Assembly (NCBI GenBank): GCA_000002445.1
Contig: CP000067.1
Location: forward strand, 1,152,001-1,216,000
Direction of reading: 5' to 3'
From: Trypanosoma brucei
Taxonomy: Eukaryota
DNA length: 64,000 nt
Shown here piece by piece: positions 15,266 through 50,555 of this stretch. The position numbers and the translations under genes are program-made. How positions within the stretch are numbered: the first letter of the stretch is position 1; each line of letters begins with the position of its first letter. The notes beneath the pieces were generated by a model. It was not told the DNA's origin and did not search any database. It worked only from the letters and a program-made list of their open reading frames with translations.

Positions 15266-16173
15266 AACTGCCTCCATCGCCTCTCCACACACATCATCAT
15301 TCATGTATCCGATACAAAAACATAAAACATCACTAGGCACAAGAGTAAATGTGTAAATAGAGCATTATAATATCATAGACTGGATGCCAGTAACAAAAAC
15401 AAAGCACACTAGCAGTCACAGTTAACATTCAACTGGCAACAGCATGGCAGACATTGTTCAGTTTCATATTCCTTGGTTGTCTAAAGGTAAAATAGAAAGA
15501 ATGGGTCTGAGGGAATATGAGGAAAGTTACAATAAGCATATGGAAACATGCAGGAAGCTATGCACAGGTATTAGATGTTGTAAATAGTTGTCGGCAGCAG
15601 TTTCATTTGAGAAGTACCTCTCACAAGCCAAAATCTCCAAAGGAGAAATGTAAAAAGGGATTGAAGCAAACACGGAAAATAAACACCAGATGATAGTTTT
15701 ACTTCATGGCAACCCCCACTTCACGGGTTTCACCTTCTTATCGTACACATCTTTAGGTGTATGAACACAACTGATAACAACACTTTAAGGATAGAGAAAG
15801 TCACATAGCAACCCAAACAAAATTAATTAATAAAATCGATTGAAAACTTAACACTGAAAAAAAAAAGATAATAAAAAACTGTAAAAACATATGTGTTTCC
15901 ATCCAATTCCACACCAAAAACAAGAAGATTTGCGATCTTCAAACACAGTTCTCAAAAGGAGAGTACCCATGTCAGAAATGGAAAGCGTCTTTATCTACAG
16001 AGATATTTTAAGCACCCACCATATGAGGAGATTATTGCGTACACAAAAAAGAAAAAAATTAATGGCCACTTTATACAAAATAAATCTAAAGAAAAGATTG
16101 CACACATGATGTAAAATAACTTATTCATTCACTTCAATAGCAAAGCGCACATATAGCAATGTTACGGGGAATA

Positions 16174-19100
16174 TTAGCTGGCAGCGCTAACATTATCCAA
16201 GTCAATCAATTGCACGCCGCTACAATCACCTTCACCGCAGAAGGAATTGGAGGATGAAGAAAGCATTATAGCAGCTGCAACCCCCCCGAGTGAGAAGAAA
16301 CTTCCGCCCCTTTCAAAGGAAGGCACACTACCAGAGGTATTTCTCGTTCCAAAATCCATAACACAACCCACCTTCGCAGCAATCCGACGAGTGACACAGC
16401 GGCAACTGGCTTCATTCCAAGCATCCATACCTGGGGGTTTCTTAACACGCCAACGCTCACAAAAAGTTGCAAGCATCTTCTGTCGCTGGGTAGCAGGGAA
16501 TGTGCCAAGCAGAGCATCAATACAACCAGCAACTTGTTGGGCAGTGGCAGTTAAACCACGTTCAGGAGATCCCGACCCACTGGTGATACTACCAGTTACA
16601 TTATCTTCTTCCTCCTCAAATTCACGGTCAAGGCGCAGAGCAGCAAAGGTACGGCCAGGTACAGCATTCAACTGGTACATTTCCACAGGCTTCGGCACAC
16701 CACGTAGCGGCACATCACCCAAAGGCGTTACATTAAGTTGCTCACGCTCTTCACCACTCAGTGACAGGTATGTTGAGCGCGTCATCAGCACCTGACCACC
16801 GTTACCAACACTCTCCGTGCGTGCTGCCATGTTGGATGTGCGTCCATAATAGTCGTAACCTTTCGTTACTTCATCATGACGAATATCACACAATCCAGTA
16901 TGAATCCCCACACGTACACGCAACCCATTCCACAGTTGCCGATAAACCTCAGGGTCCAGGCTCGCAGTTGGTGGTGTGTAATCACTGTCATCTTCCGCAC
17001 GCTTTCGTTCGAATTCACGGTAAGACTCATCAAGCTCAGTGGTCTTCCAGTCATGGTTTAGAAAATCACGTTGCAAGTCACATGCGAGTTGTGCAGCAGC
17101 GAAGGGACTTTTACACGCAATCATAAAAGAGTCTCCAACAGTTTTCACTTCGTAGCACTCATACCGTGTGATGAGGGAGCGGATCAAACGGTGATGTGTT
17201 GCCACAAGGTCAGGCATTTGCTCAGGGTGTGCTGCCCACTGCGCTGTACTGCTCTCGATGTCAGTGAATATTAATGTTACGGGGTCTGTTGGTTCCTTGG
17301 GAGCATTATTATTGTCACGGGCGTTCCGGCGTGATGCCGATACAAGTACCAGAACCGTAACAAACAGTGCCAATACAACAACGCAGCTGACTGCAATAGC
17401 AGCAATGTGTCCTCTCTTAAGTCGAAACCCTTCTGTGTCACCGTATTTCATCGAGGGTGTGACGTGAGTCACCACAGGAGACACGGAAGGATTCAGAACA
17501 CGTGACATCGACCATACAGAAATATGCGTCGCACCATAGTTCACAGCACAGTGTTTCTCTTCAAATGAAGCCCCGTTAGTACACTTGTCATCAAAAGGAC
17601 CATATCGCATATCATCAACTGTAATGACAGATTGGCTGAAGATGGCGTCTACAAGTTCCTCCGGCGTTACATGTCCCATACGTTGCAGGATATTTATCAT
17701 TGCACGTGCGGTGACATATCCAAGTAATGACAATGGCTTCCACTTCGACTCATCTCGTACAACTCTGTGGAACTCACGTACCATATCGGATTTTGTGTTC
17801 TTATCTCCCCAATGTGGCAGATTCGTTGCGAATAGCAGACGGTCAGCAAATGGCTTGTCACGGAAGGCACTCACAAGTTCATCATAGAGTAACGCAACAT
17901 CAAAGAACGGGACAAAGATACGCACATTATGGTGTTTGCCAAGGTGAGAGAGGATTATGGGGATATCATCTGAGATGAGACCTGCAACTAATACCTCACC
18001 TGCAGTCGGTAGCTTGTCTCTCAAAGTAGAACCTTCACCACTCGCAACAAAGGAGCTTAATGACGATTCAAAGAAGTCAAGTGTTTTTTGCAACACTTTC
18101 CTAACTCCTCTCGTATCACCACTACGCACAATGGCATGCATCTTTCCAGCACCATTTTGTATGATATGCTCAACTATCACGAATAGTTGTTGCTCAAGTG
18201 TTGGTGACAGGTGGATCACATTCCTTCTGGGGTTACTCAGTTGTGGTGTGAGTGTTATGGGATCGATGAATGCCATACCCTTCGTCGACAGTAACGAATC
18301 ATCCACAACACCAAACACAGCAGTTACAACTCGCTTCTCCACTTCATCATACAGAGCTGTAGAAGTGTCATGAGATTTCGAGGATAGCCAGTGTAAAAAG
18401 AATCTATCAGAGTGACCAAGTTGACCCTTTCCAACAACATAAAAGGCACCATCGTATATTGCCTCTGCAGTACGCAGTGCCTTTGGGTCATCAGTTAGTT
18501 TAAACATGATGCCACTCAATGGGGCGTACAGCTGTGACAGGTCTCTATAGCAGCGAGATGAAGTAAGAGCTAATACACCTTCCTTCATAGGGTACAGACG
18601 GAGATCCTTTCCCATCTTCTTCATGTACACCACATTCCCACCCTGATTACATAAACATGATGCACCCCGCTCACCCGCCATACCACGGCACTCACCACCA
18701 AAGTCACCAACAACAATATCATCAATTACATAACGACGTTGATTGTAAAGTGATGTAATAAATGCATCCCTGCTAGTTAGCCATTCGCGACAACTCAGTG
18801 CTTGTTTCAATACCTCTCCAGCAATCCATCCGTCAACCATCAGCTCAGCTTCAGTGTCTTGCTCGGTGAAGTTGCTTTCGTCAACATTTAGGTTAACATT
18901 CCATTGTCCAGTGCCACTCAGAATATCTTTCTTTTCCTTCAGGTACTTTGCCATATCACCCTTGAATCGTTTGATTGCATCATAGCCATCATCCTTCGCA
19001 AGTGGATTAGTCCCAGTTATTATTATCTTATCAGGCACAAACCTGTCTCTACCCAATTCCTTTTCCCACTTATTCTCAATGACATATTGGAGTGTAGAGG

Positions 19101-19908
19101 GTATGAGCAAATATCCACCTTTTGTCCTTTCATCTTCTAATGATTTCATTAGGAATTTCTTCGTATCATTGATTGGAGAGCCAAATACAATCACACCCTG
19201 AGGTCGAGTATTTGCAAACTTATTCCACTCCGCACTGAAGCTACTGTCATCCGATTCCTTACCAATTTGACTCTTCAATGCAAAAACACCGCACAGTTTG
19301 CGATCCATCCGTGTTGTCAATTCCACAGCAAGCTCATATTCATCATCACCATAAGAAACATCTTTCAAGTACATGAAACCCAGCCGATGTAACCGTAACT
19401 GAGTGATAGCATAACGGAGAAGAGCAAGCATCTCAGCAGCGGGTGATGCTGTCAGGAAGTACAGATTAGGATTCCAACTGCGTACCTTACTGGATCCTGT
19501 GAGGGGTGAGAAACTAATCACATTCTTTTCTTTGAAATATTTCAAGAGACCTAGAGTGTTTTTATCACCCACAGGTCCCAGTATAACAGGGAGTTCCTTA
19601 CCATCATGGGTTGTCATGTGTTTCCCGAGATAGTCAGCATATTTAGAATCATCCATGGGGGGAACATATACCACTTCCACATTAGCACCCGACGGCGTGT
19701 TTCCGTTGGTAATGGATGCGTTGAAGCCTGCAGTAATAGGATCATATATCTTTGCTGAAATCTTGTTACTGTATAACATGTTGTATACCTTCACCTGTAT
19801 TTTATCATTTGCAAGTGATGATGCAGTCAGCACCTGTAGTAACAGAGAAAACACTAGGTAAGTGAATGCACCATCTCTAACATACAATTCACGCATGAAG
19901 GTAACCAT
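16174..19908 (-). CDS. GRESAG4: receptor-type adenylate cyclase, ESAG4/GRESAG4 family, array copy 1 (last copy in transcription order), 1244 aa
   Basis: Architecture is N-terminal signal peptide (MVTFMRELYVRDGAFTYLVFSLLLQVLTASSLA), an extracellular domain of about 840 aa, a single TM helix (HIAAIAVSCVVVLALFVTVLVLV, nt about 17340-17412) and a class III cyclase domain (nt about 16670-17270). The cyclase domain carries metal-binding motifs LIFTDIESST and KTVGDSFMIA plus GLRVRVGIHTG...GYDYYGRTSNMAARTES. These are hallmarks of trypanosome receptor adenylate cyclases. Confidence 0.95.
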   Translation of the reverse strand: MVTFMRELYVRDGAFTYLVFSLLLQVLTASSLANDKIQVKVYNMLYSNKISAKIYDPITAGFNASITNGNTPSGANVEVVYVPPMDDSKYADYLGKHMTTHDGKELPVILGPVGDKNTLGLLKYFKEKNVISFSPLTGSSKVRSWNPNLYFLTASPAAEMLALLRYAITQLRLHRLGFMYLKDVSYGDDEYELAVELTTRMDRKLCGVFALKSQIGKESDDSSFSAEWNKFANTRPQGVIVFGSPINDTKKFLMKSLEDERTKGGYLLIPSTLQYVIENKWEKELGRDRFVPDKIIITGTNPLAKDDGYDAIKRFKGDMAKYLKEKKDILSGTGQWNVNLNVDESNFTEQDTEAELMVDGWIAGEVLKQALSCREWLTSRDAFITSLYNQRRYVIDDIVVGDFGGECRGMAGERGASCLCNQGGNVVYMKKMGKDLRLYPMKEGVLALTSSRCYRDLSQLYAPLSGIMFKLTDDPKALRTAEAIYDGAFYVVGKGQLGHSDRFFLHWLSSKSHDTSTALYDEVEKRVVTAVFGVVDDSLLSTKGMAFIDPITLTPQLSNPRRNVIHLSPTLEQQLFVIVEHIIQNGAGKMHAIVRSGDTRGVRKVLQKTLDFFESSLSSFVASGEGSTLRDKLPTAGEVLVAGLISDDIPIILSHLGKHHNVRIFVPFFDVALLYDELVSAFRDKPFADRLLFATNLPHWGDKNTKSDMVREFHRVVRDESKWKPLSLLGYVTARAMINILQRMGHVTPEELVDAIFSQSVITVDDMRYGPFDDKCTNGASFEEKHCAVNYGATHISVWSMSRVLNPSVSPVVTHVTPSMKYGDTEGFRLKRGHIAAIAVSCVVVLALFVTVLVLVSASRRNARDNNNAPKEPTDPVTLIFTDIESSTAQWAAHPEQMPDLVATHHRLIRSLITRYECYEVKTVGDSFMIACKSPFAAAQLACDLQRDFLNHDWKTTELDESYREFERKRAEDDSDYTPPTASLDPEVYRQLWNGLRVRVGIHTGLCDIRHDEVTKGYDYYGRTSNMAARTESVGNGGQVLMTRSTYLSLSGEEREQLNVTPLGDVPLRGVPKPVEMYQLNAVPGRTFAALRLDREFEEEEDNVTGSITSGSGSPERGLTATAQQVAGCIDALLGTFPATQRQKMLATFCERWRVKKPPGMDAWNEASCRCVTRRIAAKVGCVMDFGTRNTSGSVPSFERGGSFFSLGGVAAAIMLSSSSNSFCGEGDCSGVQLIDLDNVSAAS
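16670..17270 (-). other. class III nucleotidyl cyclase catalytic domain of copy 1 (approximate bounds)
   Basis: Conserved motifs run from PVTLIFTDIESSTAQWAAHPE through KTVGDSFMIACKSP to GLRVRVGIHTGLCDIRHDEVTKGYDYYGRTSNMAARTESVGNGGQVLMT. Confidence 0.8.
17340..17412 (-). other. single transmembrane helix of cyclase copy 1 (HIAAIAVSCVVVLALFVTVLVLV); equivalent segment in every copy
   Basis: The reverse complement of aaccgtaacaaacagtgccaatacaacaacgcagctgactgcaatagcagcaatgtg translates to HIAAIAVSCVVVLALFVTV. The helix is flanked by basic residues (SRRNARDNNN) on the cytosolic side. Confidence 0.8.
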
Positions 19909-19924
19909 GATACTGGTAACTCAA

Positions 19925-19995
19925 CGTAATCCAACGTGAAAACTACAAGACAAAAAGGGAATAATAACAAAGTATTGGTACAGGATTAAGAGACT
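19925..19995 (-). promoter_or_regulatory. pyrimidine tract upstream of cyclase copy 1, repeated in every unit (about 24770-24840, 29620-29690, 34485-34555, 39335-39405, 43760-43830); candidate splice-acceptor region
   Basis: The plus strand reads aaaactacaagacaaaaagggaataataacaaagtattgg, so the minus strand reads ccaatactttgttattattccctttttgtcttgtagtttt 20-90 nt upstream of each ATG. Confidence 0.45.
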
Positions 19996-21024
19996 GCATA
20001 TGTACAGATATGTTGGATTGTGACACAATAAGAGTCCATATGATAATTGTATATAAGAGTGTAGGAAAGGGAACTATTATGATGGATAGCGTTATATAAA
20101 CCATAACAGTGAGAAAGTAATTCAACATACATTCCCCTATACACACATCATTCATGTATCCGATACAAAAACGTAAAACATCACTAGGCACAAGAGTAAA
20201 TGTGTAAATAGAGCATTATAATATCATAGACTGGATGCCAGTAACAAAAACAAAGCACACTAGCAGTCACAGTTAACATTCAACTGGCAACAGCATGGCA
20301 GACATTGTTCAGTTTCATATTCCTTGGTTGTCTAAAGGTAAAATAGAAAGAATGGGTCTGAGGGAATATGAGGAAAGTTACAATAAGCATATGAAAACAT
20401 GCAGGAAGCTATGCACAGGTATTAGATGTTGCAAATAGTTGTCGGCAGCAGTTTCATTTGAGAGATACCTCTCACAAGCCAAAATCTCCAAAGGAGAAAT
20501 GTAAAAAGGGATTGAAGCAAACACGGAAAATAAACACCAGATGATAGTTTTACTTCATGGCAACCCCCACTTCACGGGTTTCACCTTCTTATCGTACACA
20601 TCTTTAGGTGTATGAACACAACTGATAACAACACATTAGAGGTAGAACCTCACTTGACCACAGCACACACAAACGGCAATTTAAGCTTATTTAACTAATA
20701 AATGTATTATTTAAAAGAGTGAGATAATCAAAAGTGGTATGGGTGCTCACATCCAATTCCACACCAAAAACAAGAAGATTTGCGATCTTCAAACACAGCT
20801 ATCAAAAGGAGAGTACCCATGTCAGAAATAGAAAGCGTCTTTATCACAAAGATATTTAAATCACCCACCATATGAGGAGATTCTTGTATTTACAAAAGTA
20901 AAAAAAAAATTAATGGCCACTTTATACAAAATAAATCTAAAGAAAAGATTGCACACATGATGTAAAACAACTTATTCATTCACTTCAATAGCAAAGCGCA
21001 CATACAGCAATGTTACGGGGAATA

Positions 21025-24000
21025 TTAGCTGGCAGCGCTAACATTATGAGGGTCAATCAATTGCACGGTACCGCGCCGTACCTCAACGCAGAAGGAACTT
21101 GAGGATGAAGCAAGCATTATAGCAGCTGCTCCTCCAGGTGAGAAGAGACTTCCGCCCCTTTCAAAAGAAGCCACACTACCAGAGGTATTTCTCGTTCCAA
21201 AATCCATAACACAACCCACCTTCGCAGCAATCCGACGAGTGACACAGCGGCAACTGGCTTCATTCCAAGCATCCATACCTGGGGGTTTCTTAACACGCCA
21301 ACGCTCACAAAAAGTTGCAAGCATCTTCTGTCGCTGGGTAGCAGGGAATGTGCCAAGCAGAGCATCAATACAACCAGCAACTTGTTGGGCAGTGGCATTT
21401 AAACCATGTGCAAGAGAGCTCGACTCACTGGTGATACTACCAGTTCCAATATCTTCTTCCTCCTCAAATTCACGGTCAAGGCGCAGAGCAGCAAAGGTAC
21501 GGCCAGGTACAGCATTCAACTGGTACATTTCCACAGGCTTCGGCACACCACGTAGCGGCACATCACCCAAAGGCGTTACATTAAGTTGCTCACGCTCTTC
21601 ACCACTCAGTGACAGGTATGTTGAGCGCGTCATCAGCACCTGACCACCGTTACCAACACTCTCCGTGCGTGCTGCCATGTTGGATGTGCGTCCATAATAG
21701 TCGTAACCTTTCGTTACTTCATCATGACGAATATCACACAATCCAGTATGAATCCCCACACGTACACGCAACCCATTCCACAGTTGCCGATAAACCTCAG
21801 GGTCCAGGCTCGCAGTTGGTGGTGTGTAATCACTGTCATCTTCCGCACGCTTTCGTTCGAATTCACGGTAAGACTCATCAAGCTCAGTGGTCTTCCAGTC
21901 ATGGTTTAGAAAATCACGTTGCAAGTCACATGCGAGTTGTGCAGCAGCGAAGGGACTTTTACACGCAATCATAAAAGAGTCTCCAACAGTTTTCACTTCG
22001 TAGCACTCATACCGTGTGATGAGGGAGCGGATCAAACGGTGATGTGTTGCCACAAGGTCAGGCATTTGCTCAGGGTGTGCTGCCCACTGCGCTGTACTGC
22101 TCTCGATGTCAGTGAATATTAATGTTACGGGGTCTGTTGGTTCCTTGGGAGCATTATTATTGTCACGGGCGTTCCGGCGTGATGCCGATACAAGTACCAG
22201 AACCGTAACAAACAGTGCCAATACAACAACGCAGCTGACTGCAATAGCAGCAATGTGTCCTCTCTTAAGTCGAAACCCTTCTGTGTCACCGTATTTCATC
22301 GAGGGTGTGACGTGAGTCACCACAGGAGACACGGAAGGATTCAGAACACGTGACATCGACCATACAGAAATATGCGTCGCACCATAGTTCACAGCACAGT
22401 GTTTCTCTTCAAATGAAGCCCCGTTAGTACACTTGTCATCAAAAGGACCATATCGCATATCATCAACTGTAATGACAGATTGGCTGAAGATGGCGTCTAC
22501 AAGTTCCTCCGGCGTTACATGTCCCATACGTTGCAGGATATTTATCATTGCACGTGCGGTGACATATCCAAGTAATGACAATGGCTTCCACTTCGACTCA
22601 TCTCGTACAACTCTGTGGAACTCACGTACCAAATCGGATTTTGTGTTCTTATCTCCCCAATGTGGCAGATTCGTTGCGAATAGCAGACGGTCAGCAAATG
22701 GCTTGTTACGGAAGGCACTCACAAGTTCATCATAGAGTAACGCAACATCAAAGAACGGGACAAAGATACGCACATTATGGTGTTTGCCAAGGTGAGAGAG
22801 GATTATGGGGATATCATCTGAGATGAGACCTGCAACCAACACCTCACCTGCAGTCGGTAGCTTGTCTCTCAAAGTAGAACCTTCACCACTCGCAACAAAG
22901 GAGCTTAATGACGCGTTAAAATATTTAAGAGTCTTCTGCAACACTTTCCTAACTCCTCTCGTATCACCACTACGCACAATGGCATGCATCTTTCCTGCAC
23001 CATTTTGTATGATATGCTCAACTATCACGAATAGTTGTTGCTCAAGTGTTGGTGACAGGTGGATCACATTCCTTCTGGGGTTACTCAGTTGTGGTGTGAG
23101 TGTTATAGGATCGATGAATGCCATACCCTTCGTGGACAGTAACGAATCATCCACAACACCAAACACAGCAGTTACAACTCGCTTCTCCACTTCATCATAC
23201 AGAGCTGTAGAAGTGTCATGAGATTTCGAGGATAGCCAGTGTAAAAAGAATCTATCAGAGTGACCAAGTTGACCCTTTCCAACAACATAAAAGGCACCAT
23301 CGTATATTGCCTCTGCAGTACGCAGTGCCTTTGGGTCATCAGTTAGTTTAAACATGATGCCACTCAATGGGGCGTACAGCTGTGACAGGTCTCTATAGCA
23401 GCGAGATGAAGTAAGAGCTAATACACCTTCCTTCATAGGGTACAGACGGAGATCCTTTCCCATCTTCTTATGTACACCACATTCCCACCCTGATTACATA
23501 AACATGATGCACCCCGCTCACCCGCCATACCACGGCACTCACCACCAAAGTCACCAACAACAATATCATCAATTACATAACGACGTTGATTGTAAAGTGA
23601 TGTAATAAATGCATCCCTGCTAGTTAGCCATTCGCGACAACTCAGTGCTTGTTTCAATACCTCTCCAGCAATCCATCCACTCACCATCAGCTCACCTTCA
23701 GTGTCTTGCTCGGTGAAGTTGCTTTCGTCAACATTTAAGTTAACATTCCAATTATCTTTCGAAAAATTATTTCCGTGTACCCTTAGGAACTTTGCCATAT
23801 CATCCCTAAAACGTTTGATTGCATCATAACCATCATCCTTCGCAAGTGGATTAGTCCCAGTTATTATTATCTTATCAGGCACAAACCTGTCTCTACCCAA
23901 TTCCTTTGCCCACTTATTCTTGATGACATATTGGAGTGTAGAGGGTATGAGCAAATATCCACCTTTTGTCCTGCGGTCATCTAATGATTTCATTAGAAAT

Positions 24001-24752
24001 CTTTTCGTATCAGGGATTGGAGAGCCAAATACAATCACACCCTGAGGTCGAGTATTTGCAAACTTATTCCACTCTGCACTGAAGCTACTGTCATCCGATT
24101 CCTTACCAATTTGACTCTTCAATGCAAAAACACCGCACAGTTTGCGATCCATCCGTGTTGTCAATTCCACAGCAAGCTCATATTCATCATCACCATAAGA
24201 AACATCTTTCAAGTACATGAAACCCAGCCGATGTAACCGTAACTGAGTGATAGCATAACGGAGAAGAGCAAGCATCTCAGCAGCGGGTGATGCTGTCAGG
24301 AAGTACAGATTAGGATTCCAACTGCGTACCTTACTGGATCCTGTGAAGGGTGAGAAACTAATCACATTCTTTTCTTTGAAATATTTCAAGAGACCTAGAG
24401 TGTTTTTATCACCCACAGGTCCCAGTATAACAGGGAGTTCCTTACCATCATGGGTTGTCATGTGTTTCCCGATATAGTCAGCATATTTAGAATCATCCAT
24501 GGGCGGAACATATACCACTTCCACATTAGCACCTGACGGCGGGTTTCCGTTGGTAATGGATGCGTTGAAGCCTGCAATAATAGGATCATATATCTTTGCT
24601 GAAATCTTGTTACTGTATAACATGTTGTATACCTTCACCTGTATTTTATCATTTGCAAGTGATGATGCAGTCAGCACCTGTAGTAACAGAGAAAACACTA
24701 GGTAAGTGAATGCGCCATCTCTAACATACAATTCACGCATGAAGGTAACCAT
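21025..24752 (-). pseudogene. GRESAG4: receptor-type adenylate cyclase GRESAG4-like, array copy 2, interrupted by a 1-bp frameshift (N-terminal 439-aa ORF 23433-24752 and C-terminal 812-aa ORF 21025-23463)
   Basis: At 23463-23470 the plus strand reads cttcttatgtac where all other copies read cttcttcatgtac, so one C is missing. Upstream of this point the protein ends ...GGNVVYIRRWERISVCTL*. The remaining 812 codons (MGKDLRLYPM...) are intact but in the -1 frame. Everything else is co-linear with the other copies. It is either a genuine pseudogene or an assembly or sequencing error in a collapsed repeat. Confidence 0.8.
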
Positions 24753-42800: not shown

Positions 42801-43742
42801 ACGTTTGATTGCATCATAGCCATCATCCTTCGCAAGTGGATTAGTCCCAGTTATTATTATCTTACCAGGCACAAACCTGTCTCTACCCAATTCTTCTGAC
42901 CACTTGTTCTTGATGACATATTGGAGTGTAGAGGGTATGAGCAAATATCCACCTTTTGTCCTTTCATCTTCTAATGATTTAATTAGGAATTTCTTCGTAT
43001 CAGGGATTGGAGAGCCAAATACAATCACACCCTGAGGTCGAGTATTTGCAAACTTATTCCACTCCGCACTGAAGCTACTGTCATCCGATTCCTTTTCAAT
43101 TTGACTCTTCAATGCAAAAACACCGCACAGTTTGCGATCCATCCGTGTTGTCAATTCCACAGCAAGCTTATATTCATCATCACCATAAGAGACATCTTTC
43201 AAGTACATGAAACCCAGCCGATGTAACCGTAACTGAGTGATAGCATAACGGAGAAGAGCAAGCATCTCAGCAGCGGGTGATGCTGTCAGGAAGTACAGAT
43301 TAGGATTCCAACTGCGTACTTTACTGGATCCTGTGAAGGGTGAGAAACTAGTCACATTCTTTTCTTTGAAATATTTCAAGAGACCTAGAGTATTTTGGTC
43401 ACCCACAGGTCCCAGTATAATAGATATTTTATTGTTTTCGCCAAATGATGTTTCGTTATTCAGAAAGTCAGCATATTTAGAATCATCCATGGGGGGAACA
43501 TATACCACTTCCACATTAGCACCTGACGGCGGGTTTCCGTTGGTAATGGATGCGTTGAAGCCTGCAATAATAGGATCATATATCTTTGCTGAAATCTTGT
43601 TACTGTATAACATGTTGTATACCTTCACCTGTATTTTATCATTTGCAAGTGATGATGCAGTCAGCACCTGTAGTAACAGAGAAAACACTACGTAAGTGAC
43701 TGCGCCATCCCTAACATACAATTCACGCATGAAGGTAACCAT
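39876..43742 (-). CDS. GRESAG4: receptor-type adenylate cyclase GRESAG4-like, array copy 6, 1288 aa, with an alternative, longer C-terminal tail
   Basis: It is identical in plan to copies 1-5 through the cyclase domain. After ...ALRLDR (nt about 40455) it diverges into a tail of about 195 aa: DVEDEENEESEGIFTDVSDICSSTHELCGSS...LGTLPATQRQRMLTSICERWRVPPPKSVKNRW...FGTSLGDNGKNS. This tail is only about 50% identical to the standard tail, and the stop lies about 560 bp closer to the next gene. Confidence 0.93.
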   Translation of the reverse strand: MVTFMRELYVRDGAVTYVVFSLLLQVLTASSLANDKIQVKVYNMLYSNKISAKIYDPIIAGFNASITNGNPPSGANVEVVYVPPMDDSKYADFLNNETSFGENNKISIILGPVGDQNTLGLLKYFKEKNVTSFSPFTGSSKVRSWNPNLYFLTASPAAEMLALLRYAITQLRLHRLGFMYLKDVSYGDDEYKLAVELTTRMDRKLCGVFALKSQIEKESDDSSFSAEWNKFANTRPQGVIVFGSPIPDTKKFLIKSLEDERTKGGYLLIPSTLQYVIKNKWSEELGRDRFVPGKIIITGTNPLAKDDGYDAIKRFRGELANFLKVNGNNFSKDNWNVTLNANENNFTEQDTEGELMVSGWIAGEVLKQALSCREWLTSRDAFITSLYNQRRYVIDDIVVGDFGGECRGMAGERGASCLCNQGGNVVYMKKMEEDHRLYPMKEGVLALTSSRCYRDLSQLYAPLSGIMFKLTDDPKALRTAEAIYDGAFYVVGKGQLGHSDRFFLHWLSSKSHDTSTALYDEVEKRVVTAVFGVVDDSLLSTKGMAFIDPITLTPQLSNPRRNVIHLSPTLEQQLFVIVEHIIQNGAGKMHAIVRSGDTKDIGEMLNKTLDFFESSLSSFVASGEGSTLRDKLPTAGEVLVAGLISDDIPIILSHLGKHHNVRIFVPFFDVALLYDELVSAFRDKPFADRLLFATNLPHWGDKNTESDLVREFHRVVQNESKWKPLSLLGYVTARAMINVLQRMGHVTPEDLVDAIFSQSVITVDDMRYGPFDDKCTNGASFEEKHCAVNYGATHISVWSMSRVLNPSVSPVVTHVTPLMMDGYAKWFRLKRGHIAAIAVSCVVVLALFVTVLLLVIRSSRRNARDNNNAPKEPTDPVTLIFTDIESSTAQWAAHPEQMPDLVATHHRLIRSLITRYECYEVKTVGDSFMIACKSPFAAAQLACDLQRDFLNHDWKTTELDESYREFERKRAEDDSDYTPPTASLDPEVYRQLWNGLRVRVGIHTGLCDIRHDEVTKGYDYYGRTSNMAARTESVGNGGQVLMTRSTYLSLSGKEREQINVTPLGDVPLRGVPKPVEMYQLNAVPGRTFAALRLDRDVEDEENEESEGIFTDVSDICSSTHELCGSSLHVAQSLETVLGTLPATQRQRMLTSICERWRVPPPKSVKNRWDKATFRLAVHHIAVRAGPIMNVVIRNSTGTALSTERSSFALSHSICDVSQLGRQHPLPSVRFHTPMEVKEYLCMSPTDKFDFSIYSCSTIDINMFNGTLEKFDSREPLFGTSLGDNGKNS

Positions 43743-44300
43743 GATACTGGTAACTCAACGTAATCCAACGTGAAAACTACAAGACAAAAAGGGAATAATA
43801 ACAAAGTATTGGTACAGGATTAAGAGACTGCATATGTACAGATATGTTGGATTGTGACACAATAAGAGTCCATATGATAATTGTATATAAGAGTGTAGGA
43901 AAGGGAACTATTATAATGGATAGCGTTATATAAACCATAACAGTGAGAAAGTAATTCAACACACATTTCCCTATACACACATCATTCATGTATCCGATAC
44001 AAAAACATAAAACATCACTAGGCACAAGAGTAAATGTGTAAATAGAGCATTATAATATCATAGACTGGATGCCAGTAACAAAAACAAAGCACACTAGCAG
44101 TCACAGTTAACATTCAACTGGCAACAGCATGGGAGACATTGTTCAGTTTCATATTCCTTGGTTGTCTAAAGGTAAAAGAGAAAGAATGGGTGTGAGGGAA
44201 TATGAGGAAAGTTACAATAAGCATATGGAAACATGCAGGAAGCGATGCACAGGTATTAGATGTTGCTAGTATTTGTCTCCAACAATATGATGTCGATATT

Positions 44301-47300
44301 TCAACTATTTTTTCCATTGTCCCCGAGAGATGTGCCAAATAATGGTTCACGTGAATCAAATTTCTCCAAGGTGCCGTTAAACATATTAATATCTATTGTA
44401 CTACAAGAGTATATCGAAAAGTCGAATTTGTCAGTCGGTGACATACATAGGTATTCTGTTACTTCCATCGGTGCTTCAATTCGAACGGAAGGTAGTGGAT
44501 GCTGCCGTCCTAACTGGCTAACATCGCAAATGCTATGAGATGGAGGACACGGCTTTCTTTCCGCGCATACTGCTGCAGCTGCGGCATTGCGTATATTGAC
44601 ACTCATTACCGGCCCAGCTCTTACTGCAATATGACGTATAACGAGCCGGAATGTTGCTTTATCCCACCTATTCTTCACACTTTTAGGTGGAGGGACACGC
44701 CAGCGTTCACAAATAGATGTGAGCATCCTCTGTCGCTGGGTAGCAGGGAGAGTACTAAAAACAGTGTCAAGGGACTGTGCAACATGCAACGAGGAACCAC
44801 ATAACTCATGTGTAGAAGAGCAAATATCGCTTACATCAGTAAATATTCCTTCACTTTCTTTGCCTTCCTCCTCAGCTTCACGGTCAAGGCGCAGAGCAGC
44901 AAAGGTACGGCCAGGTACAGCATTCAACTGGTACATTTCCACAGGCTTCGGCACACCACGTAGCGGCACATCACCCAAAGGCGTTACATTAATTTGCTCA
45001 CGTTCCAAAGTACTTAGTGCATGATACGCCGCAAGGGTCATCAGCACCTGACCACCGTTACCAACACTCTCCGTGCGTGCTGCCATGTTGGATGTGCGTC
45101 CATAATAGTCGTAACCTTTCGTTACTTCATCATGACGAATATCACACAATCCAGTATGAATCCCCACACGTACACGCAACCCATTCCACAGTTGCCGATA
45201 AACCTCAGGGTCCAGGCTCGCAGTTGGTGGTGTGTAATCACTGTCATCTTCCGCACGCTTTCGTTCGAATTCACGGTAAGACTCATCAAGCTCAGTGGTC
45301 TTCCAGTCATGGTTTAGAAAATCACGTTGCAAGTCACATGCGAGTTGTGCAGCAGCGAAGGGACTTTTACACGCAATCATAAAAGAGTCTCCAACAGTTT
45401 TCACTTCGTAGCACTCATACCGTGTGATGAGGGAGCGGATCAAACGGTGATGTGTTGCCACAAGGTCAGGCATTTGCTCAGGGTGTGCTGCCCACTGCGC
45501 TGTACTGCTCTCGATGTCAGTGAATATTAATGTTACGGGGTCTGTTGGTTCCTTGGGAGCATTATTATTGTCACGGGCGTTCCGGCGTGATGATCTTATG
45601 ACAAGTACCAGAACCGTAACAAACAGTGCCAATACAACAGCGCAGCTGACTGCAATAGCAGCAATGTGTCCCGTCTTCATTGTGGGTCCGCTGTTTTCAT
45701 TTTTTAACATTGCAGGAGTGACCTGAGTCACCACAAGAGACACGGAAGGATTCAGAACACGTGACATCGACCATACAGAAATATGCGTCGCACCATAGTT
45801 CACAGCACAGTGTTTCTCTTCAAATGAAGCTCCGTTAGTACACTTGTCATCAAAAGGACCATATCGCATATCATCAACTGTAATGACAGATTGGCTGAAG
45901 ATGGCGTCTACAAGCTCCTCCGGTGTTACATGTCCCATACGTTGCAGGACATTTATCATTGCACGTGCGGTGACATATCCAAGTAATGACAATGGCTTCC
46001 ACTTCGACTCATTCTGTACAACTCTGTGGAACTCACGTACCAAATCGGATTCCGTGTTCTTATCTCCCCAATGTGGCAGATTCGTTGCGAATAGCAGACG
46101 GTCAGCAAATGGCTTGTCACGGAAGGCACTCACAAGTTCATCATAGAGTAACGCAACATCAAAGAACGGGACAAAGATACGCACATTATGGTGTTTGCCA
46201 AGGTGAGAGAGGATTATGGGGATATCATCTGAGATGAGACCTGCAACCAACACCTCACCTGCAGTCGGTAGCTTGTCTCTCAAAGTAGAACCTTCACCAC
46301 TCGCAACAAAGGAGCTTAATGACGCGTTAAAGATATCAAGCGTTTTTTGCAACACTTTCCTAACTCCTCTCGTATCACCACTACGCACAATGGCATGCAT
46401 CTTTCCTGTACCATTTTGTATGATATGCTCAACTATCACGAATAGTTGTTGCTCAAGTGTTGGTGACAGGTGGATCACATTCCTTCTGGGGTTACTCAGT
46501 TGTGGTGTGAGTGTTATAGGATCGATGAATGCCATACCCTTCGTCGACAGTAACGAATCATCCACAACACCAAACACAGCAGTTACAACTCGCTTCTCCA
46601 CTTCATCATACAGAGCTGTGGAAGTATCATGAGATTTCGAGGATAGCCAGTGTAAAAAGAATCTATCAGAGTGACCAAGTTGACCCTTTCCAACAACATA
46701 AAAGGCACCATCGTATATTGCCTCTGCAGTACGCAGTGCCTTTGGGTCATCAGTTAGTTTAAACATGATGCCACTCAATGGGGCGTACAGCTGTGACAGG
46801 TCTCGATAACAGCGAGATGAAGTAAGAGTTAATACACCTTCCTTCATAGGATGTAGACGGAGATCCTTTCCCATCTTCTTCATGTACACCACATTCCCAC
46901 CCTGATTGCATAAACATGATGCACCCCGCTCACCCGCCATACCACGGCACTCACCACCAAAGTCACCAACAACAATATCATCAATTACATAACGACGTTG
47001 ATTGTAAAGTGATGTAATAAATGCATCCCTGCTAGTTAGCCATTCGGTGTATGTGACCGTCTGTTTCAATACCTCTCCAGCAATCCATCCACTCACCATC
47101 AGCTCAGCTTCAGTGTCTTGCTCGGTGAAGTTGCTTTCGTCAACATTTAAGTTAACATTCCAATGTCCGGTGCCACTCAGAATATCTTTCTTTTCCTTCA
47201 GGTACTTTGCCATATCACCCCTAAAACGTTTGATTGCATCATAGCCATCATCCTTCGCAAGTGGATTAGTCCCAGTTATTATTATCTTATCAGGCACAAA

Positions 47301-48116
47301 CCTGTCTCTACCCAATTCCTTTGCCCACTTGTTCTTGATGACATATTGGAGTGTAGAGGGTATGAGCAAATATCCGCCTCTCGTCCTGCGGTCATCTAAT
47401 GATTTCATTAGAAATCTTTTCGTATCAGGGATTGGAGAGCCAAATACAATCACACCCTGAGGTCGAGTATTTGCAAACTTATTCCACTCTGCACTGAAGC
47501 TACTGTCATCCGATTCCTTACCAATTTGACTCTTCAATGCAAAAACACCACAGAATTTGCGATCCATCCGTGTTGTCAATTCCACAGCAAGCTCATATTC
47601 ATCATCACCATAAGAAACATCTTTCAAGTACATGAAACCCAGCCGATGTAACCGTAACTGAGTGATAGCATAACGGAGAAGAGCAAGCATCTCAGCAGCG
47701 GGTGATGCTGTCAGGAAGTACAGATTAGGATTCCAACTGCGTACTTTACTGGATCCTGTGAAGGGTGAGAAACTAGTCACATTCTTTTCTTTGAAATATT
47801 TCAAGAGACCTAGAGTGTTTTTATCACCCACAGGTCCCAGTATAACAGGGAGTTCCTCACCATCATGGGTTGTCATGTGTTTCTCGAGATAGTCAGCATA
47901 TTTAGAATCATCCATGGGTGGAACATATACCACTTTCACATTAGCACCTAAATGGGACCTTCCGTTGGTAATGGATGCGTTGAAGCCTGCAGTAATAGGA
48001 TCATATATCTTTGCTGAAATCTTGTTACTGTATAACATGTTGTATATATTTACATTAATCTGTGCTGCTGATGCTGTTGTGTGGAAGAGTAATGGCAGTA
48101 GAAGTAATTTAAGCAT
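44301..48116 (-). CDS. GRESAG4: receptor-type adenylate cyclase GRESAG4-like, array copy 7 (first in transcription order), 1271 aa, with a distinct signal peptide and the alternative C-terminal tail
   Basis: The N-terminus is MLKLLLLPLLFHTTASAAQINVNIYNMLYSNKISAKIYDPI..., a different signal peptide that joins the family frame at NMLYSNKISAKIYDP. The sequence upstream of 48060 is unique. The C-terminal tail is the same type as copy 6, diverging after LRLDREAEEEGKESEGIFTDVSD at about 44865. The cyclase motifs are intact, but there is a unique patch VLMTLAAYHALSTLEREQINV. Confidence 0.92.
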   Translation of the reverse strand: MLKLLLLPLLFHTTASAAQINVNIYNMLYSNKISAKIYDPITAGFNASITNGRSHLGANVKVVYVPPMDDSKYADYLEKHMTTHDGEELPVILGPVGDKNTLGLLKYFKEKNVTSFSPFTGSSKVRSWNPNLYFLTASPAAEMLALLRYAITQLRLHRLGFMYLKDVSYGDDEYELAVELTTRMDRKFCGVFALKSQIGKESDDSSFSAEWNKFANTRPQGVIVFGSPIPDTKRFLMKSLDDRRTRGGYLLIPSTLQYVIKNKWAKELGRDRFVPDKIIITGTNPLAKDDGYDAIKRFRGDMAKYLKEKKDILSGTGHWNVNLNVDESNFTEQDTEAELMVSGWIAGEVLKQTVTYTEWLTSRDAFITSLYNQRRYVIDDIVVGDFGGECRGMAGERGASCLCNQGGNVVYMKKMGKDLRLHPMKEGVLTLTSSRCYRDLSQLYAPLSGIMFKLTDDPKALRTAEAIYDGAFYVVGKGQLGHSDRFFLHWLSSKSHDTSTALYDEVEKRVVTAVFGVVDDSLLSTKGMAFIDPITLTPQLSNPRRNVIHLSPTLEQQLFVIVEHIIQNGTGKMHAIVRSGDTRGVRKVLQKTLDIFNASLSSFVASGEGSTLRDKLPTAGEVLVAGLISDDIPIILSHLGKHHNVRIFVPFFDVALLYDELVSAFRDKPFADRLLFATNLPHWGDKNTESDLVREFHRVVQNESKWKPLSLLGYVTARAMINVLQRMGHVTPEELVDAIFSQSVITVDDMRYGPFDDKCTNGASFEEKHCAVNYGATHISVWSMSRVLNPSVSLVVTQVTPAMLKNENSGPTMKTGHIAAIAVSCAVVLALFVTVLVLVIRSSRRNARDNNNAPKEPTDPVTLIFTDIESSTAQWAAHPEQMPDLVATHHRLIRSLITRYECYEVKTVGDSFMIACKSPFAAAQLACDLQRDFLNHDWKTTELDESYREFERKRAEDDSDYTPPTASLDPEVYRQLWNGLRVRVGIHTGLCDIRHDEVTKGYDYYGRTSNMAARTESVGNGGQVLMTLAAYHALSTLEREQINVTPLGDVPLRGVPKPVEMYQLNAVPGRTFAALRLDREAEEEGKESEGIFTDVSDICSSTHELCGSSLHVAQSLDTVFSTLPATQRQRMLTSICERWRVPPPKSVKNRWDKATFRLVIRHIAVRAGPVMSVNIRNAAAAAVCAERKPCPPSHSICDVSQLGRQHPLPSVRIEAPMEVTEYLCMSPTDKFDFSIYSCSTIDINMFNGTLEKFDSREPLFGTSLGDNGKNS

Positions 48117-50555
48117 TCTTCCGCCTTTGCTGCCTATCTTATTCGTTGGGAACCTTTTGTTTTCTATCTTTTTTTAATTTTTTTGTGAGGGATGAGTGGT
48201 AGAGTTAGTAGTGTAGACGATAGAAAGAAGAAAAAGAGCGCTTGTAAAATTAGTGATGTGTCCGTGTTGTTTTGTTGTGCAATTGGGGATTGCTCATTAC
48301 TGTTATCTTATTTTGTTATTTGTAGTGGTTTCTTGTTTTGTTGCGTGTTAATTGAGTAAATCTGTTTTTTTTTTTTAAAACGGCGTCAAGCGTGATGCTA
48401 TATTTGCTCTGTGTTGTTATGAAATTTATGCCGACTCATGGCCTCAGACGTTTTTGGATACTTTGTGTACCGTCTGTGTCTGGTCATATTTTTCGATTTC
48501 TTGTTTTTTTTTTTATCCGACTGTACATTTTACCTTTCTCCTGTTATATTATCATATATCTTTTTCCATCACGAATATTATGTTGGTAATATAGTATGCG
48601 CTACGATGGGGCGCGCCCAAAGACTTGTGTGATGTGTCTGTTTACGTCCATGTCTGTAGCTGTTTATTTGTGGGAGTTTAATTTGTTTTTCACCTGGTAA
48701 GACGCCCTTTCGTGTGCAAAATAGGGGACACTTAGTGACGAACCTCTTCTATTTGGTATTATTGGTAATACCTCATCAAATAATTGCATTGCATTGCGTT
48801 ATTCCTGGTTCTGTAGTTGGTCAGACATGTGGCAATGAGTTGCCCCATCACATGTATCGTGATTTATGAGTATCACATATACATCATCTTAGGTAAAAAT
48901 ACCGCTCATACAGGACCATACATCGATATATGGGGAGGGAGTTTCTTTATGTTGAAGGTCACGACGATATTAATAAAACATTACCTCATACGTTGCACGT
49001 GAGGTGGCACCAACTCCTCCCACAGAAGTTGTCATGTTGCTATTCCGCCTTGAAGTTTAAAGTTCAGTGCATGTAGAATCGGGAAACAAATAGTGACAGC
49101 TTCCAGTTCTCAGCATACATTCGGCACCGCTCGTAGATGGAGGGGGCGGGTGGCACAGTACTCACGTTTTGTCGTTTTATCGTCTATTTTTTTATTTTAG
49201 TCTGTTTTTTTTTCTTTTCTCTGAGCCGTGCTTTTTTGCGAACAAAAAAAGGGGGAAACCTGCGTGCAGGGGTGATCAATAAGCTCAAATAAATCCCAGC
49301 ACTTGCCATTATATCATGAGTCAACGCTAAAATGAATACGAATGCAAACTAATGAAAGCGAGTGGGGATGAAAAAGACGTTTGATGAGCCGTGCGTGATC
49401 TGAAATCCATCAGAGTTGCCAATTTTATTTTTATTTTTTTACTTTTATTTTCCAACACTTACACCGCCAGGGCGTCCACAACCCTTTCCTTTCATTTGCA
49501 TCTGTCTTATAACCGTTTCTTCCTCTTCCTCTTTCTCTCCCTCTTCTCACGTTACACTGCTACTCGCTTTACTAATCCGCTCCTATTCTGGATGCCTCTC
49601 CATTGTAAAAGGGGATCCCATTAATTCTGCAGGTTATAATATCAACAATGTTTCTCCATGAATAATCTTATGTTTTTGCGACATGAAACTTCTTAACTCC
49701 ACGGAGTAACTTCGACTTAATAACGCAACAACTGCATCTTCTTTCTATTCCTTCATGCAGCCTTTTGTGTGAAAATAGGGAAGACACAACAAACTGAGGA
49801 AGAAAGGCAACAACAGTGTGACAAATAGAGAGTTTCAGAGGAGGGGAAAAGAAAAAGAATTCATCACAGAGTGAAGTGTGAGCCCAATACGAATACAAAC
49901 ACACATGCAGTGGGGAAGGGGGGGGGGAAGAGAAAATATGTACAATCACATGATATTACCAGAGTGTATTTTCTTATTATTATTATTATTCTTCCCTTTA
50001 CTTGGCCGTTTATCCGCTAGTCACGAAGTAACAGGAACGTCCCACCTGTGTCCCTCTTTTCCCCCGTCAGTACATCTTTTTTCTTACTTTCTTTTTATGC
50101 CCTAACCAAACCTGTTGACAAAACTGGATAAAAAAAAAAGAAAAGTTGAAAGGCGTGACCGTGAACAATAGAGAAGTAAAGGAAAAAATGAAAATTAAAC
50201 CCACAAAAAGAAAATAAAGTAAAATACGACAACAAACAACTAAGCATGGACGGTAGTAACACCATGGGAAGGGAGCGTTGGAGGACCTCAGTGGTGGTAG
50301 TAATACTCAGCTGAGTCCCAGAATATGCTTACGCCTGCGTGCCCGGGTATGTGCACCCAACACTAAAGTATAAGGAAGGAAAACGAAGAAAAAGAAAAAA
50401 AATCGAAAAGGCGCAGTGTTGTGGAAACAAAAACAAAAAAAAAAGAAAAGGAACGCATTTGCACACGTGAATATCCGCACATATGCACGCATGCACCACG
50501 CGAACCCCACTACGCACGACATTATGGATGAATGGGAAATGTTGTAAGTGCCAAC

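What the first reader, a model, noticed from the sequence alone, without database searches (positions are those of the whole stretch)
15290..48200. Seven-copy head-to-tail array of receptor-type adenylate cyclase genes (about 33 kb, over half the window)
Seven near-identical genes of about 3.7 kb recur with a period of about 4.85 kb on the same strand. Each encodes the signal peptide, large ectodomain, single TM helix and class III cyclase design that is characteristic of trypanosome ESAG4/GRESAG4 receptor cyclases. From established knowledge, this family is massively expanded in African trypanosomes and acts at the host-parasite interface. What the sequence shows directly is a homogeneous array bounded by unique sequence at both ends. 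Copy 7 has its own 5' flank, and the LRR gene starts just below the spacer after copy 1. Near-identical arrays like this are prone to assembly collapse or expansion, so the true copy number deserves a check.
Basis: partly seen in the sequence, partly recalled or inferred. Interest (0 to 1): 0.6.

Follow-up and report, generated by a model that had tools for sequence, protein, structure and literature searches.

The report
Known trypanosome adenylate cyclase gene array

Summary
Seven head-to-tail units lie on the minus strand, with repeat homology from 15289 to 48046 and the copy-7 start codon at 48116. Exact protein look-ups place the window on T. brucei brucei TREU927 chromosome 4. [quoted passage not shown] Each intact copy has an N-terminal hydrophobic leader, two periplasmic-binding-protein-like ectodomains, one TM helix and a class III cyclase domain (E 1e-123 to the GRESAG4.3/4.1 crystal structures).

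- Copy 2 carries a 1-nt deletion and has no protein accession, so it is a likely pseudogene.
- The 4.85-kb period holds only for copies 1-5. The last two intervals are 4.29 and 4.43 kb.
- Copies 6 and 7 have a different C-terminal tail (about 31% identical to the others) and a 558-nt spacer.
- Units are 96-98% identical within copies 1-5, and each is distinguishable.

Variation is patchy and mosaic, and the cyclase core is homogenised even at silent sites, which indicates gene conversion. The gambiense DAL972 assembly also shows 7 units, in a different tail order and with an assembly gap. The T. b. equiperdum IVM-t1 assembly shows 5.

Jackson et al. 2007 and 2010 already describe this array ("array 28, Tb927.4.4470, 7 copies, recombinant"). 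Verdict: already known, low interest.

The parts
15289..48116 (-). Whole tandem array of seven GRESAG4 receptor adenylate cyclase units. Transcription order is c7 to c1. The inferred gene IDs are Tb927.4.4470 down to Tb927.4.4410.
   Evidence: The limits come from blastn self-comparison. Exact protein matches to XP_844591-XP_844596 are. Gene IDs are inferred from gene order and from PMC2212663, PMC2854126 and PMC9505544.
44301..48116 (-). Copy 7, 1271 aa (XP_844596, inferred Tb927.4.4470). It is the first unit transcribed. It has its own short signal peptide (MLKLLLLPLLF...), a unique 5' flank and a type B C-terminal tail.
39876..43742 (-). Copy 6, 1288 aa (XP_844595, inferred Tb927.4.4460), with a type B C-terminal tail. 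It is 93% identical to GenBank AAF69135.1.
35586..39317 (-). Copy 5, 1243 aa (XP_844594), with a type A tail.
30723..34466 (-). Copy 4, 1247 aa (XP_844593), with a type A tail.
25872..29603 (-). Copy 3, 1243 aa (XP_844592), with a type A tail. It serves as the reference unit. Hydrophobic leader at aa 14-28, PBP-like ectodomain about aa 100-822, TM helix aa 838-856 (27036-27092), cyclase homology domain aa 871-1081 (26361-26993), tail aa 1096-1243.
21025..24752 (-). Copy 2 (inferred Tb927.4.4420), with a type A tail. A 1-nt deletion between 23470 and 23469 (codon 428) gives two ORFs: 439 aa (23433-24752) and 812 aa (21025-23463). Restoring the missing base gives a full-length 1242-aa reading frame. 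The copy has no protein accession, so it is a probable pseudogene or a base-call error.
   Evidence: The XP numbers skip this copy.
16174..19908 (-). Copy 1, 1244 aa (XP_844591, inferred Tb927.4.4410), with a type A tail. It is the last unit transcribed.
24753..25275 (-). Shared 523-nt segment directly upstream of the start codon of copies 1-6, about 98-100% identical between units. It holds pyrimidine tracts followed by AG 35-90 nt before the ATG. It is inferred to be the trans-splice acceptor region plus 5' UTR. Other instances are at 39318-39840 and 43743-44265 and, by position within the aligned spacers, about 19909-20431, 29604-30126 and 34467-34989.
   Evidence: The function is an inference.
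25276..25871 (-). The 596-nt segment that follows the stop codon of every type A unit, inferred to be the type A 3' UTR. It is absent after copies 6 and 7.
39318..39875 (-). Short 558-nt spacer after copy 6, made of 35 nt plus the shared 523-nt segment. The spacer after copy 7 (43743-44300) has the same structure.
15289..16173 (-). Terminal partial spacer after copy 1. It holds the type A 3' segment plus 291 nt of the shared segment. Repeat homology ends at 15289.
9944..15154 (-). Downstream flanking gene, 1736 aa (XP_844590, Tb927.4.4400, 'Flagellar Member 4'), with weak LRR matches at the C-terminus. It is not part of the array.
   Evidence: PMC2212663
51924..54767 (-). Upstream flanking gene, 947 aa, conserved hypothetical protein (XP_844597). 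It is separated from copy 7 by 3.8 kb of unique AT-rich sequence. It is not part of the array.

Best explanation
The region is the chromosome-internal GRESAG4 tandem array of Trypanosoma brucei brucei TREU927 chromosome 4 (Tb927.4.4410-4470). It holds six intact genes and one frameshifted copy, all on one strand inside a long same-strand gene run.

Each intact gene encodes a type I membrane protein. The parts are a cleavable leader, a roughly 800-aa ectodomain built from two periplasmic-binding-protein-like modules, one TM helix, a class III cyclase homology domain and a variable C-terminal tail.

By established knowledge of the family, the enzyme is active as a dimer. It sits in the flagellar membrane and makes cAMP in response to still unknown external cues or stress. 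Collectively these cyclases dampen host TNF-alpha production when parasites are phagocytosed.

The array form gives dosage and isoform diversity in an organism without gene-specific promoters (inference). Each unit carries its own inferred splice-acceptor and 5' UTR segment and its own 3' segment.

The array evolves by unequal exchange and gene conversion:
- The catalytic core is kept identical.
- A limited set of ectodomain patch alleles is reshuffled among units.
- Two tail classes, with their own 3' regions, stay distinct behind a sharp boundary at the end of the cyclase domain.
For: Shown by tools:
- Exact identity of six copies and of the flanking genes to TREU927 chromosome 4 proteins on a 1,590,432-bp contig.
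- Domain architecture.
- E 1e-123 to PDB 1fx4 and 1fx2.
- One strong TM segment and all cyclase motifs (FTDIE, KTVGDSF, RVGIHTG, YDYYG, NMAARTES) in all seven copies.
- An N-terminal hydrophobic leader in every copy.
- dN/dS of 0.2-0.8 in nearly all regions and comparisons, reaching 1.0 only in the 40-codon juxtamembrane/TM stretch for c6 versus c7.
- Mosaic structure: 15132 of 40470 pairs of informative sites fail the four-gamete test, and the groupings of copies change from patch to patch.
- Homogenisation: no variable column among the seven copies in alignment columns 2665-3143 and 3188-3302. Silent-site divergence within c1-c5 is 0.004 in the cyclase domain against 0.05 in the ectodomain.
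- Sharp tail boundary: tails are 30-33% identical between classes, against 91-94% for the rest of the protein.
- Patch alleles are shared among three subspecies in different combinations.

From the literature:
- Array 28 (Tb927.4.4470): 7 annotated copies in both T. b. brucei and T. b. gambiense, recombination PHI p<0.001 (PMC2854126; PMC1855330).
- It is paralogous to the chromosome 8 array (PMC2212663).
- Tb927.4.4410, 4440 and 4470 are seen in bloodstream-form proteomics (PMC12816148).
- Tb927.4.4460 was tagged and shows bloodstream-biased translation (PMC7719234).
- Family mechanism and the immune role (PMC6027212).
Against: Nothing contradicts the identification. Several limits remain:
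- Enzyme activity, dimerisation, localisation and ligand are not shown for these particular copies by anything done here.
- The splice-acceptor and UTR assignment of the spacers is inferred from pyrimidine tracts only.
- The mapping of Tb927.4.44x0 identifiers to individual copies rests on gene order and accession order.
- The copy number in the living strain cannot be verified from one assembly.
Confidence: 0.97

Rival explanations
1. The count of seven is an assembly artefact, and the real array has been collapsed or expanded.
For: The T. equiperdum OVI contig stops about 55 nt into the array. DAL972 has a 100-N gap inside one unit, with about 1 kb of CDS missing. The IVM-t1 assembly has 5 units, not 7. 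[quoted passage not shown]
Against: All seven TREU927 units are distinct. The closest pair is about 98% identical, roughly 75 differences per CDS. Five units have a closer match in another subspecies than within their own array: T7-I1 98.8%, T6-D3 98.0%, T5-D4 98.4%, T4-D5 98.7%, T1-I4 98.8%. That is not expected of artefactual duplicates. The window contains no N. Different counts in other subspecies can be real copy-number polymorphism.
Confidence: 0.1
2. The genes are ESAG4 copies that belong to a telomeric VSG expression site rather than GRESAG4 genes.
For: One 90%-identity cluster member (AEX08457.1) was deposited under the name 'expression site-associated protein 4'. The type A tail is 55-56% identical to ESAG4 tails.
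Against: The array lies between housekeeping genes on one strand: V-H+-pyrophosphatase, FLAM4 (the LRR protein), a conserved hypothetical protein and MRPE/ABCC6. The ORF lists, Pfam scans and protein look-ups of the flanks show only these core-type genes. Proteins named ESAG4 are only 46-49% identical. Published work treats this locus as a core-chromosome tandem array.
Confidence: 0.01
3. The array is mostly decaying pseudogenes with no current function.
For: Copy 2 is frameshifted. Frameshifted units also occur in DAL972 (D4, D5) and IVM-t1 (I5). Pseudogenes are common in this family (PMC7719234).
Against: Six of the seven ORFs are intact over 1243-1288 codons. dN/dS is below 1 almost everywhere. 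The catalytic motifs are intact in all copies, including the repaired c2. Products of at least three copies are reported in proteomes. The I5 frameshift is two homopolymer-length changes, typical of long-read error.
Confidence: 0.02

Closest known systems
T. brucei tandem gene array 28 (Tb927.4.4410-4470), as catalogued by Jackson 2007 (PMC1855330) and Jackson et al. 2010 (PMC2854126)
   Same: It is the same locus. The papers list 7 annotated copies in both T. b. brucei and T. b. gambiense, GRESAG4 adenylate cyclase, chromosome 4, sequence mosaics and significant recombination tests. My four-gamete and patch analyses reproduce this.
   Different: Nothing essential differs. Three details were added here that I did not find in the passages I read. 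There is a sharp split into two C-tail and 3'-spacer classes. The tail-class order differs between strains (B-B-A-A-A-A-A in TREU927, A-B-B-A-A-A-A in DAL972). The IVM-t1 assembly has a 5-unit array.
GRESAG4.1 and GRESAG4.3 (PDB 1FX2, 1FX4) and ESAG4 of T. brucei
   Same: The architecture is the same and the cyclase homology domain is highly similar (E 1e-121 to 1e-123). Pfam finds the same domain set in these relatives.
   Different: Full-length identity is only 43-49%. ESAG4 lies in telomeric expression sites, whereas this array is chromosome-internal.
GenBank AAF69135.1 'adenylyl cyclase [T. brucei]', 1290 aa. From memory this is GRESAG4.4B of Naula et al. 2001, which I could not read.
   Same: It is 93% identical to copies 6 and 7 and has the type B tail along its whole length.
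   Different: It is a mosaic of c6-like and c7-like segments, presumably from another strain. The link between the accession and the name GRESAG4.4B is not verified by any tool.
Chromosome 8 GRESAG4 array (Tb927.8.7860 onwards), the duplicon paralogue
   Same: It holds the syntenic position next to the paralogues of the LRR gene and the V-H+-PPase gene (PMC2212663).
   Different: The best chromosome 8 protein is only 57% identical (P0034), so the two arrays no longer exchange sequence.
Mammalian receptor guanylyl cyclases (for example the atrial natriuretic peptide receptor, NPR-A)
   Same: The design is the same: a PBP-like ectodomain, one TM helix, a class III cyclase domain, and activity as a dimer. 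There are weak direct hits to ANP receptor chains (E 2e-5).
   Different: There is no kinase-homology domain. The product is cAMP, not cGMP. No ligand is known.

Membership tests
Trypanosomatid receptor-type adenylate cyclase (ESAG4/GRESAG4 family) | Class III cyclase homology domain with metal-binding Asp residues, substrate Lys/Asp and transition-state Asn/Arg motifs | tested here: met
   PF00211 at E about 1e-43. PDB 1fx4 and 1fx2 at E 1e-123 and 1e-121. FTDIE, KTVGDSF, YDYYG and NMAARTES are present in all seven copies.
Trypanosomatid receptor-type adenylate cyclase (ESAG4/GRESAG4 family) | Large extracellular region made of periplasmic-binding-protein-like modules | tested here: met
   PF25495 (E 1e-57), PF25493 (E 1e-143) and PF13458 (E 1e-14) in the copies tested.
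Trypanosomatid receptor-type adenylate cyclase (ESAG4/GRESAG4 family) | Single transmembrane helix between the ectodomain and the cyclase domain | tested here: met
   Each copy has exactly one 19-mer with Kyte-Doolittle score of 1.8 or more (score 3.1-3.2), at aa 822-860. It is followed by a basic RRNAR stretch.
Trypanosomatid receptor-type adenylate cyclase (ESAG4/GRESAG4 family) | N-terminal signal peptide | tested here: met
   There is a hydrophobic 11-mer scoring 2.3 within the first 30 residues of every copy, followed by small residues (TASSLA or TASAA). No dedicated signal-peptide predictor was available, so this rests on hydropathy and inspection.
Trypanosomatid receptor-type adenylate cyclase (ESAG4/GRESAG4 family) | Adenylate cyclase activity, dimer-dependent, and flagellar membrane location | not testable with these tools
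   Known for family members from the literature (PMC6027212). Tb927.4.4460 was tagged in PMC7719234.
GRESAG4 as opposed to ESAG4 | Located outside telomeric VSG expression sites | tested here: met
   The flanks hold V-H+-PPase, FLAM4/LRR, a conserved hypothetical protein and MRPE, all on the same strand. Proteins named ESAG4 are 46-49% identical.
GRESAG4.4 subfamily (Naula et al. 2001) | Close identity to the GRESAG4.4A/B reference sequences | tested here: inconclusive
   Copies 6 and 7 are 93% identical to AAF69135.1. That this accession is GRESAG4.4B is my recollection. The paper is not held.
Trypanosome tandem gene array under concerted evolution | Head-to-tail same-strand copies with conserved intergenic processing regions | tested here: met
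   Seven units lie on the minus strand. A shared 523-nt upstream segment is about 98-100% identical between units.
Trypanosome tandem gene array under concerted evolution | Sequence mosaics and gene conversion among copies | tested here: met
   37% of informative site pairs fail the four-gamete test, and the groupings of copies change from patch to patch. Silent-site homogenisation is seen in the cyclase core. The published PHI test gives p<0.001.

The most novel reading that the evidence does not exclude
The two C-tail and 3'-region classes are functionally distinct isoform classes, for example differing in life-cycle stage, flagellar sub-domain or regulator binding. Type A is the 148-aa tail with 596 nt of its own downstream sequence. 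Type B is the 193-aa tail whose last ~80 aa match nothing outside its own cluster among the family members retrieved here, with almost no private 3' sequence. On this reading, selection keeps the two classes apart against array-wide gene conversion. Differences between subspecies in unit number and tail order (7 units B-B-A-A-A-A-A; 7 units A-B-B-A-A-A-A; 5 units B-A-A-A-A) would then change the cAMP signalling repertoire.
Probability: 0.25. Interest if true: 0.3.

Novelty: already known. Interest (0 to 1): 0.08.

Why it matters
The locus is part of the expanded adenylate cyclase repertoire that African trypanosomes use for environmental sensing and for suppressing early host TNF-alpha responses. 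Arrays like this are where new isoforms arise by recombination. This particular array is already annotated in the reference genome and has been analysed for recombination in two published studies, so confirming it adds no new biology.

Three practical points remain:
- One of the seven copies is frameshifted.
- The array contains two tail and 3'-region classes that short-read mapping and RNAi or tagging reagents will not separate unless they target the tails.
- Copy number and unit order differ between assemblies of different subspecies.

Tried and rejected
- **Tandem Repeats Finder:** it found nothing, because the 4.3-4.9 kb unit exceeds its 500-nt maximum period. I used blastn self-comparison instead.
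- **Positive selection on the ectodomain:** I tested the idea that the variable ectodomain patches are under positive selection. Region-wise Nei-Gojobori dN/dS is 0.36-0.7 there, so there is no support at this resolution. Per-site tests were not run.
- **Shared pseudogene lesion:** I considered that the c2 frameshift and the nearby I5 frameshift in IVM-t1 mark a common lesion. They are different events. I5 has two homopolymer-length changes typical of long-read error.
- **Independent support for c2:** I looked for the c2 state in the protein collection. Neither the two partial ORFs nor the repaired full-length protein is present, so the question stays open.
- **Non-coding RNA:** an Rfam scan and a tRNA scan of the whole window found nothing.
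- **Flanking spacers:** ORF inspection of 48117-51923 and 1-9943 showed nothing relevant to the array.
- **Naula et al. 2001:** I tried to read the GRESAG4.4B paper, but it is not held.
- **ESAG4 reading:** rejected on genomic context and 46-49% identity.
- **Structure prediction:** not run, because the family, domains and solved catalytic structures already settle the identity.

Full report
**1. Observation**

The window holds seven long minus-strand ORFs or ORF pairs of about 3.7 kb between 16174 and 48116.

blastn of one unit with both its spacers (24753-30722) against the window finds repeat homology from 15289 to 48046 at 89-100% identity.

Start-to-start spacing is 4851, 4847, 4851 and 4863 nt for copies 1-5, but 4290 and 4425 nt for the last two intervals. 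Tandem Repeats Finder is silent only because its maximum period is 500 nt.

**2. Source of the window**

The flanking genes are:
- the vacuolar H+-pyrophosphatase XP_844588 at 3027-5507;
- XP_844590 at 9944-15154, "Flagellar Member 4", published as the leucine-rich-repeat gene Tb927.4.4400;
- the 947-aa hypothetical protein XP_844597;
- the ABC transporter at 57090-62492, which corresponds to the 1759-aa Tb927.4.4490 / XP_844598 / MRPE.

These rest. The 1800-aa GTG-start ORF of the ABC transporter is itself not in the protein collection. Its assignment rests on its position after XP_844597 and on the 1759-aa ABC gene annotated at the same place in L002 and L003.

From gene order and accession order, the copies are Tb927.4.4410 (copy 1) to Tb927.4.4470 (copy 7). 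This mapping is an inference. It is consistent with PMC2212663 and PMC2854126, which name Tb927.4.4470 as the array's sample gene.

**3. Anatomy of a unit**

Pfam finds two trypanosome-cyclase periplasmic-binding-protein-like domains, Peripla_BP_6 and the class III Guanylate_cyc domain in every copy tested.

The cyclase domain matches the crystal structures of GRESAG4.3 (1fx4) and GRESAG4.1 (1fx2) at E 2e-123 and 3e-121.

Each copy has:
- one strong hydrophobic helix at about aa 838-856;
- all the catalytic motifs;
- eight ectodomain cysteines;
- 3-8 N-glycosylation sequons;
- a hydrophobic N-terminal leader.

The spacers contain pyrimidine tracts followed by AG 35-90 nt before each start codon. 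This fits trans-splicing acceptor regions, though that function is an inference.

**4.

*Copy 2.* It lacks one G between window positions 23470 and 23469 (codon 428). This gives overlapping ORFs of 439 and 812 aa. With the base restored the frame is open for 1242 codons. The XP accession series skips this copy, and neither ORF is in the protein collection. This fits annotation as a pseudogene. A base-call error cannot be excluded.

*Two classes of unit.* Copies 1-5 (type A) end in a 148-aa tail followed by 596 nt of their own downstream sequence. Copies 6 and 7 (type B) end in a 193-aa tail followed by only 35 nt before the 523-nt segment that precedes the next gene.
- Tails are 30-33% identical between classes, whereas the rest of the protein is 91-94% identical.
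- The switch is abrupt. No column varies in alignment positions 3188-3302 across all seven copies. Sixty of the next hundred positions vary.
- The type A tail resembles tails of a chromosome 7 paralogue (88%), other GRESAG4s (71%) and ESAG4s (55-56%).
- The last ~80 residues of the type B tail match nothing outside its own 90% cluster among the family members I retrieved.

*Copy 7.* It has its own short leader peptide and a unique upstream flank.

**5. Evolutionary dynamics**

Of 3883 aligned columns, 765 vary, and the variation is strongly clustered.

Copies group differently from patch to patch. 15132 of 40470 pairs of informative sites fail the four-gamete test, so the units are mosaics.

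dN/dS is 0.2-0.8 in nearly all regions and comparisons. The one exception is 1.01 for c6 versus c7 in the 40-codon juxtamembrane/TM stretch.

In the cyclase domain, silent divergence within copies 1-5 is 0.004, against about 0.05 in the ectodomain. That points to homogenisation by gene conversion and not just purifying selection.

**6. Other assemblies**

I fetched the syntenic region from two other assemblies:
- T. b. gambiense DAL972 (L001, L004, L007);
- T. b. equiperdum IVM-t1 (L003, L005, L006; I take it to be a long-read assembly, which I did not verify).

*DAL972* has seven units in the tail order A-B-B-A-A-A-A. The first unit has the copy-7-type 5' end but a type A tail. The second is interrupted by a 100-N gap with about 1 kb of CDS missing. 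Two further units have frameshifts.

*IVM-t1* has five units, B-A-A-A-A. The end of its array was fixed from record coordinates and a match of the terminal spacer. Its fifth unit has two homopolymer-length deletions that look like sequencing errors.

*T. equiperdum OVI* (L002): this contig ends about 55 nt into the array.

Several TREU927 units have a closer partner in another subspecies (98.0-98.8%) than within their own array (94-98%). Patch alleles recur across subspecies in different combinations. The units are therefore old, individually recognisable and partly positionally orthologous.

That argues against the seven TREU927 units being assembly duplicates. It also shows that unit number and order are not fixed in the species, or at least not in its assemblies.

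**7. Function**

Nothing here tests function directly. The family literature says the following:
- The enzymes need dimerisation of the cyclase domain for activity. This was shown with the GRESAG4.4B catalytic domain fused to a leucine zipper.
- They sit in the flagellar membrane.
- C-terminal segments of some isoforms carry targeting information.
- Collectively the cyclases produce a cAMP burst that inhibits TNF-alpha synthesis in myeloid cells that engulf parasites (PMC6027212).

For this array specifically:
- Tb927.4.4460 was tagged, was weakly expressed in procyclic forms and shows bloodstream-biased translation (PMC7719234).
- Tb927.4.4410, 4440 and 4470 appear in bloodstream-form proteome data (PMC12816148).

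**8. Novelty**

The array is entry 28 in Jackson's catalogue of T. brucei tandem arrays (PMC1855330).

It appears in Table 2 of the T. b. gambiense genome paper as "Adenylate cyclase, GRESAG4, Tb927.4.4470, chromosome 4". The entry gives 7 copies in T. b. brucei, 7 in T. b. gambiense, 5 shared isoforms, PHI p<0.001 and multiple breakpoints (PMC2854126).

It is also treated as the paralogue of the chromosome 8 array in the chromosome 4/8 duplicon study (PMC2212663).

The finding is therefore a correct reading of a known, annotated and published locus. The tail-class structure and the strain differences in unit order are modest refinements, not a new kind of feature.

Noticed in passing
window 9944-15154 (-): The gene directly downstream of the cyclase array (Tb927.4.4400, XP_844590, 'Flagellar Member 4', weak C-terminal LRR hits) is listed in the APEX2 proximity proteome of the flagellar-tip cyclase AC1. 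TrypTag localises it to distal points of the flagellum (PMC8141408). Its chromosome 8 paralogue Tb927.8.7950 also lies close to the chromosome 8 GRESAG4 array, judging by gene numbering in PMC2212663. This could be a functional link, or merely synteny retained from the duplication.
   Followed up: partly
window 23469-23470 (copy 2): A single-base deletion (CATGAAG to CAT-AAG), not in a homopolymer run, is the only lesion in an otherwise full-length cyclase ORF. It is either a very recent pseudogene or a base-call error in the reference.
   Followed up: partly
window 39876-48116 compared with GenBank AAF69135.1: The independently cloned 1290-aa T. brucei adenylyl cyclase AAF69135.1 is 93% identical to both copy 6 and copy 7. 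It alternates between c6-like and c7-like segments, so it looks like a recombinant of the two type B units in another strain.
   Followed up: partly
L001 8283-8382 (DAL972); L002 end (T. equiperdum OVI): A 100-N gap replaces about 1 kb of CDS in the second DAL972 unit. The OVI contig ends about 55 nt into the array. Both show that assemblies fail at this locus.
   Followed up: yes
L001 1621-5304 (DAL972 first unit): The first DAL972 unit combines the copy-7-type leader and 5' flank with a type A tail, whereas TREU927 copy 7 has a type B tail. Tail class has therefore been exchanged between units since the subspecies split.
   Followed up: partly
window 48117-51923: This is a 3.8-kb AT-rich stretch (GC 0.39) between copy 7 and the 947-aa gene. 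No ORF there looks real (none shows any sign of conservation), and there are no Rfam or tRNA hits. It contains the only 2-kb bin of the window with positive GC skew. It is probably a long UTR or processing region.
   Followed up: partly
window 3027-5507 (-): The vacuolar H+-pyrophosphatase gene has a paralogue on another TREU927 contig (2.48 Mb, chromosome 8) within the same 90%-identity cluster. The neighbouring cyclase arrays on the two chromosomes are only 57% identical. Divergence after the chromosome 4/8 duplication has been very uneven.
   Followed up: no
window 57090-62492 (-) and 63429-63465: The ABC transporter MRPE (Tb927.4.4490) contains a His/Gly-rich run (HGHGQSHAHGHGHGHG). A (TG)18 microsatellite lies upstream of it. 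Kolev et al. 2010 report a separate transcript from within the 3' UTR of this gene, which would lie at about 54768-57089.
   Followed up: no
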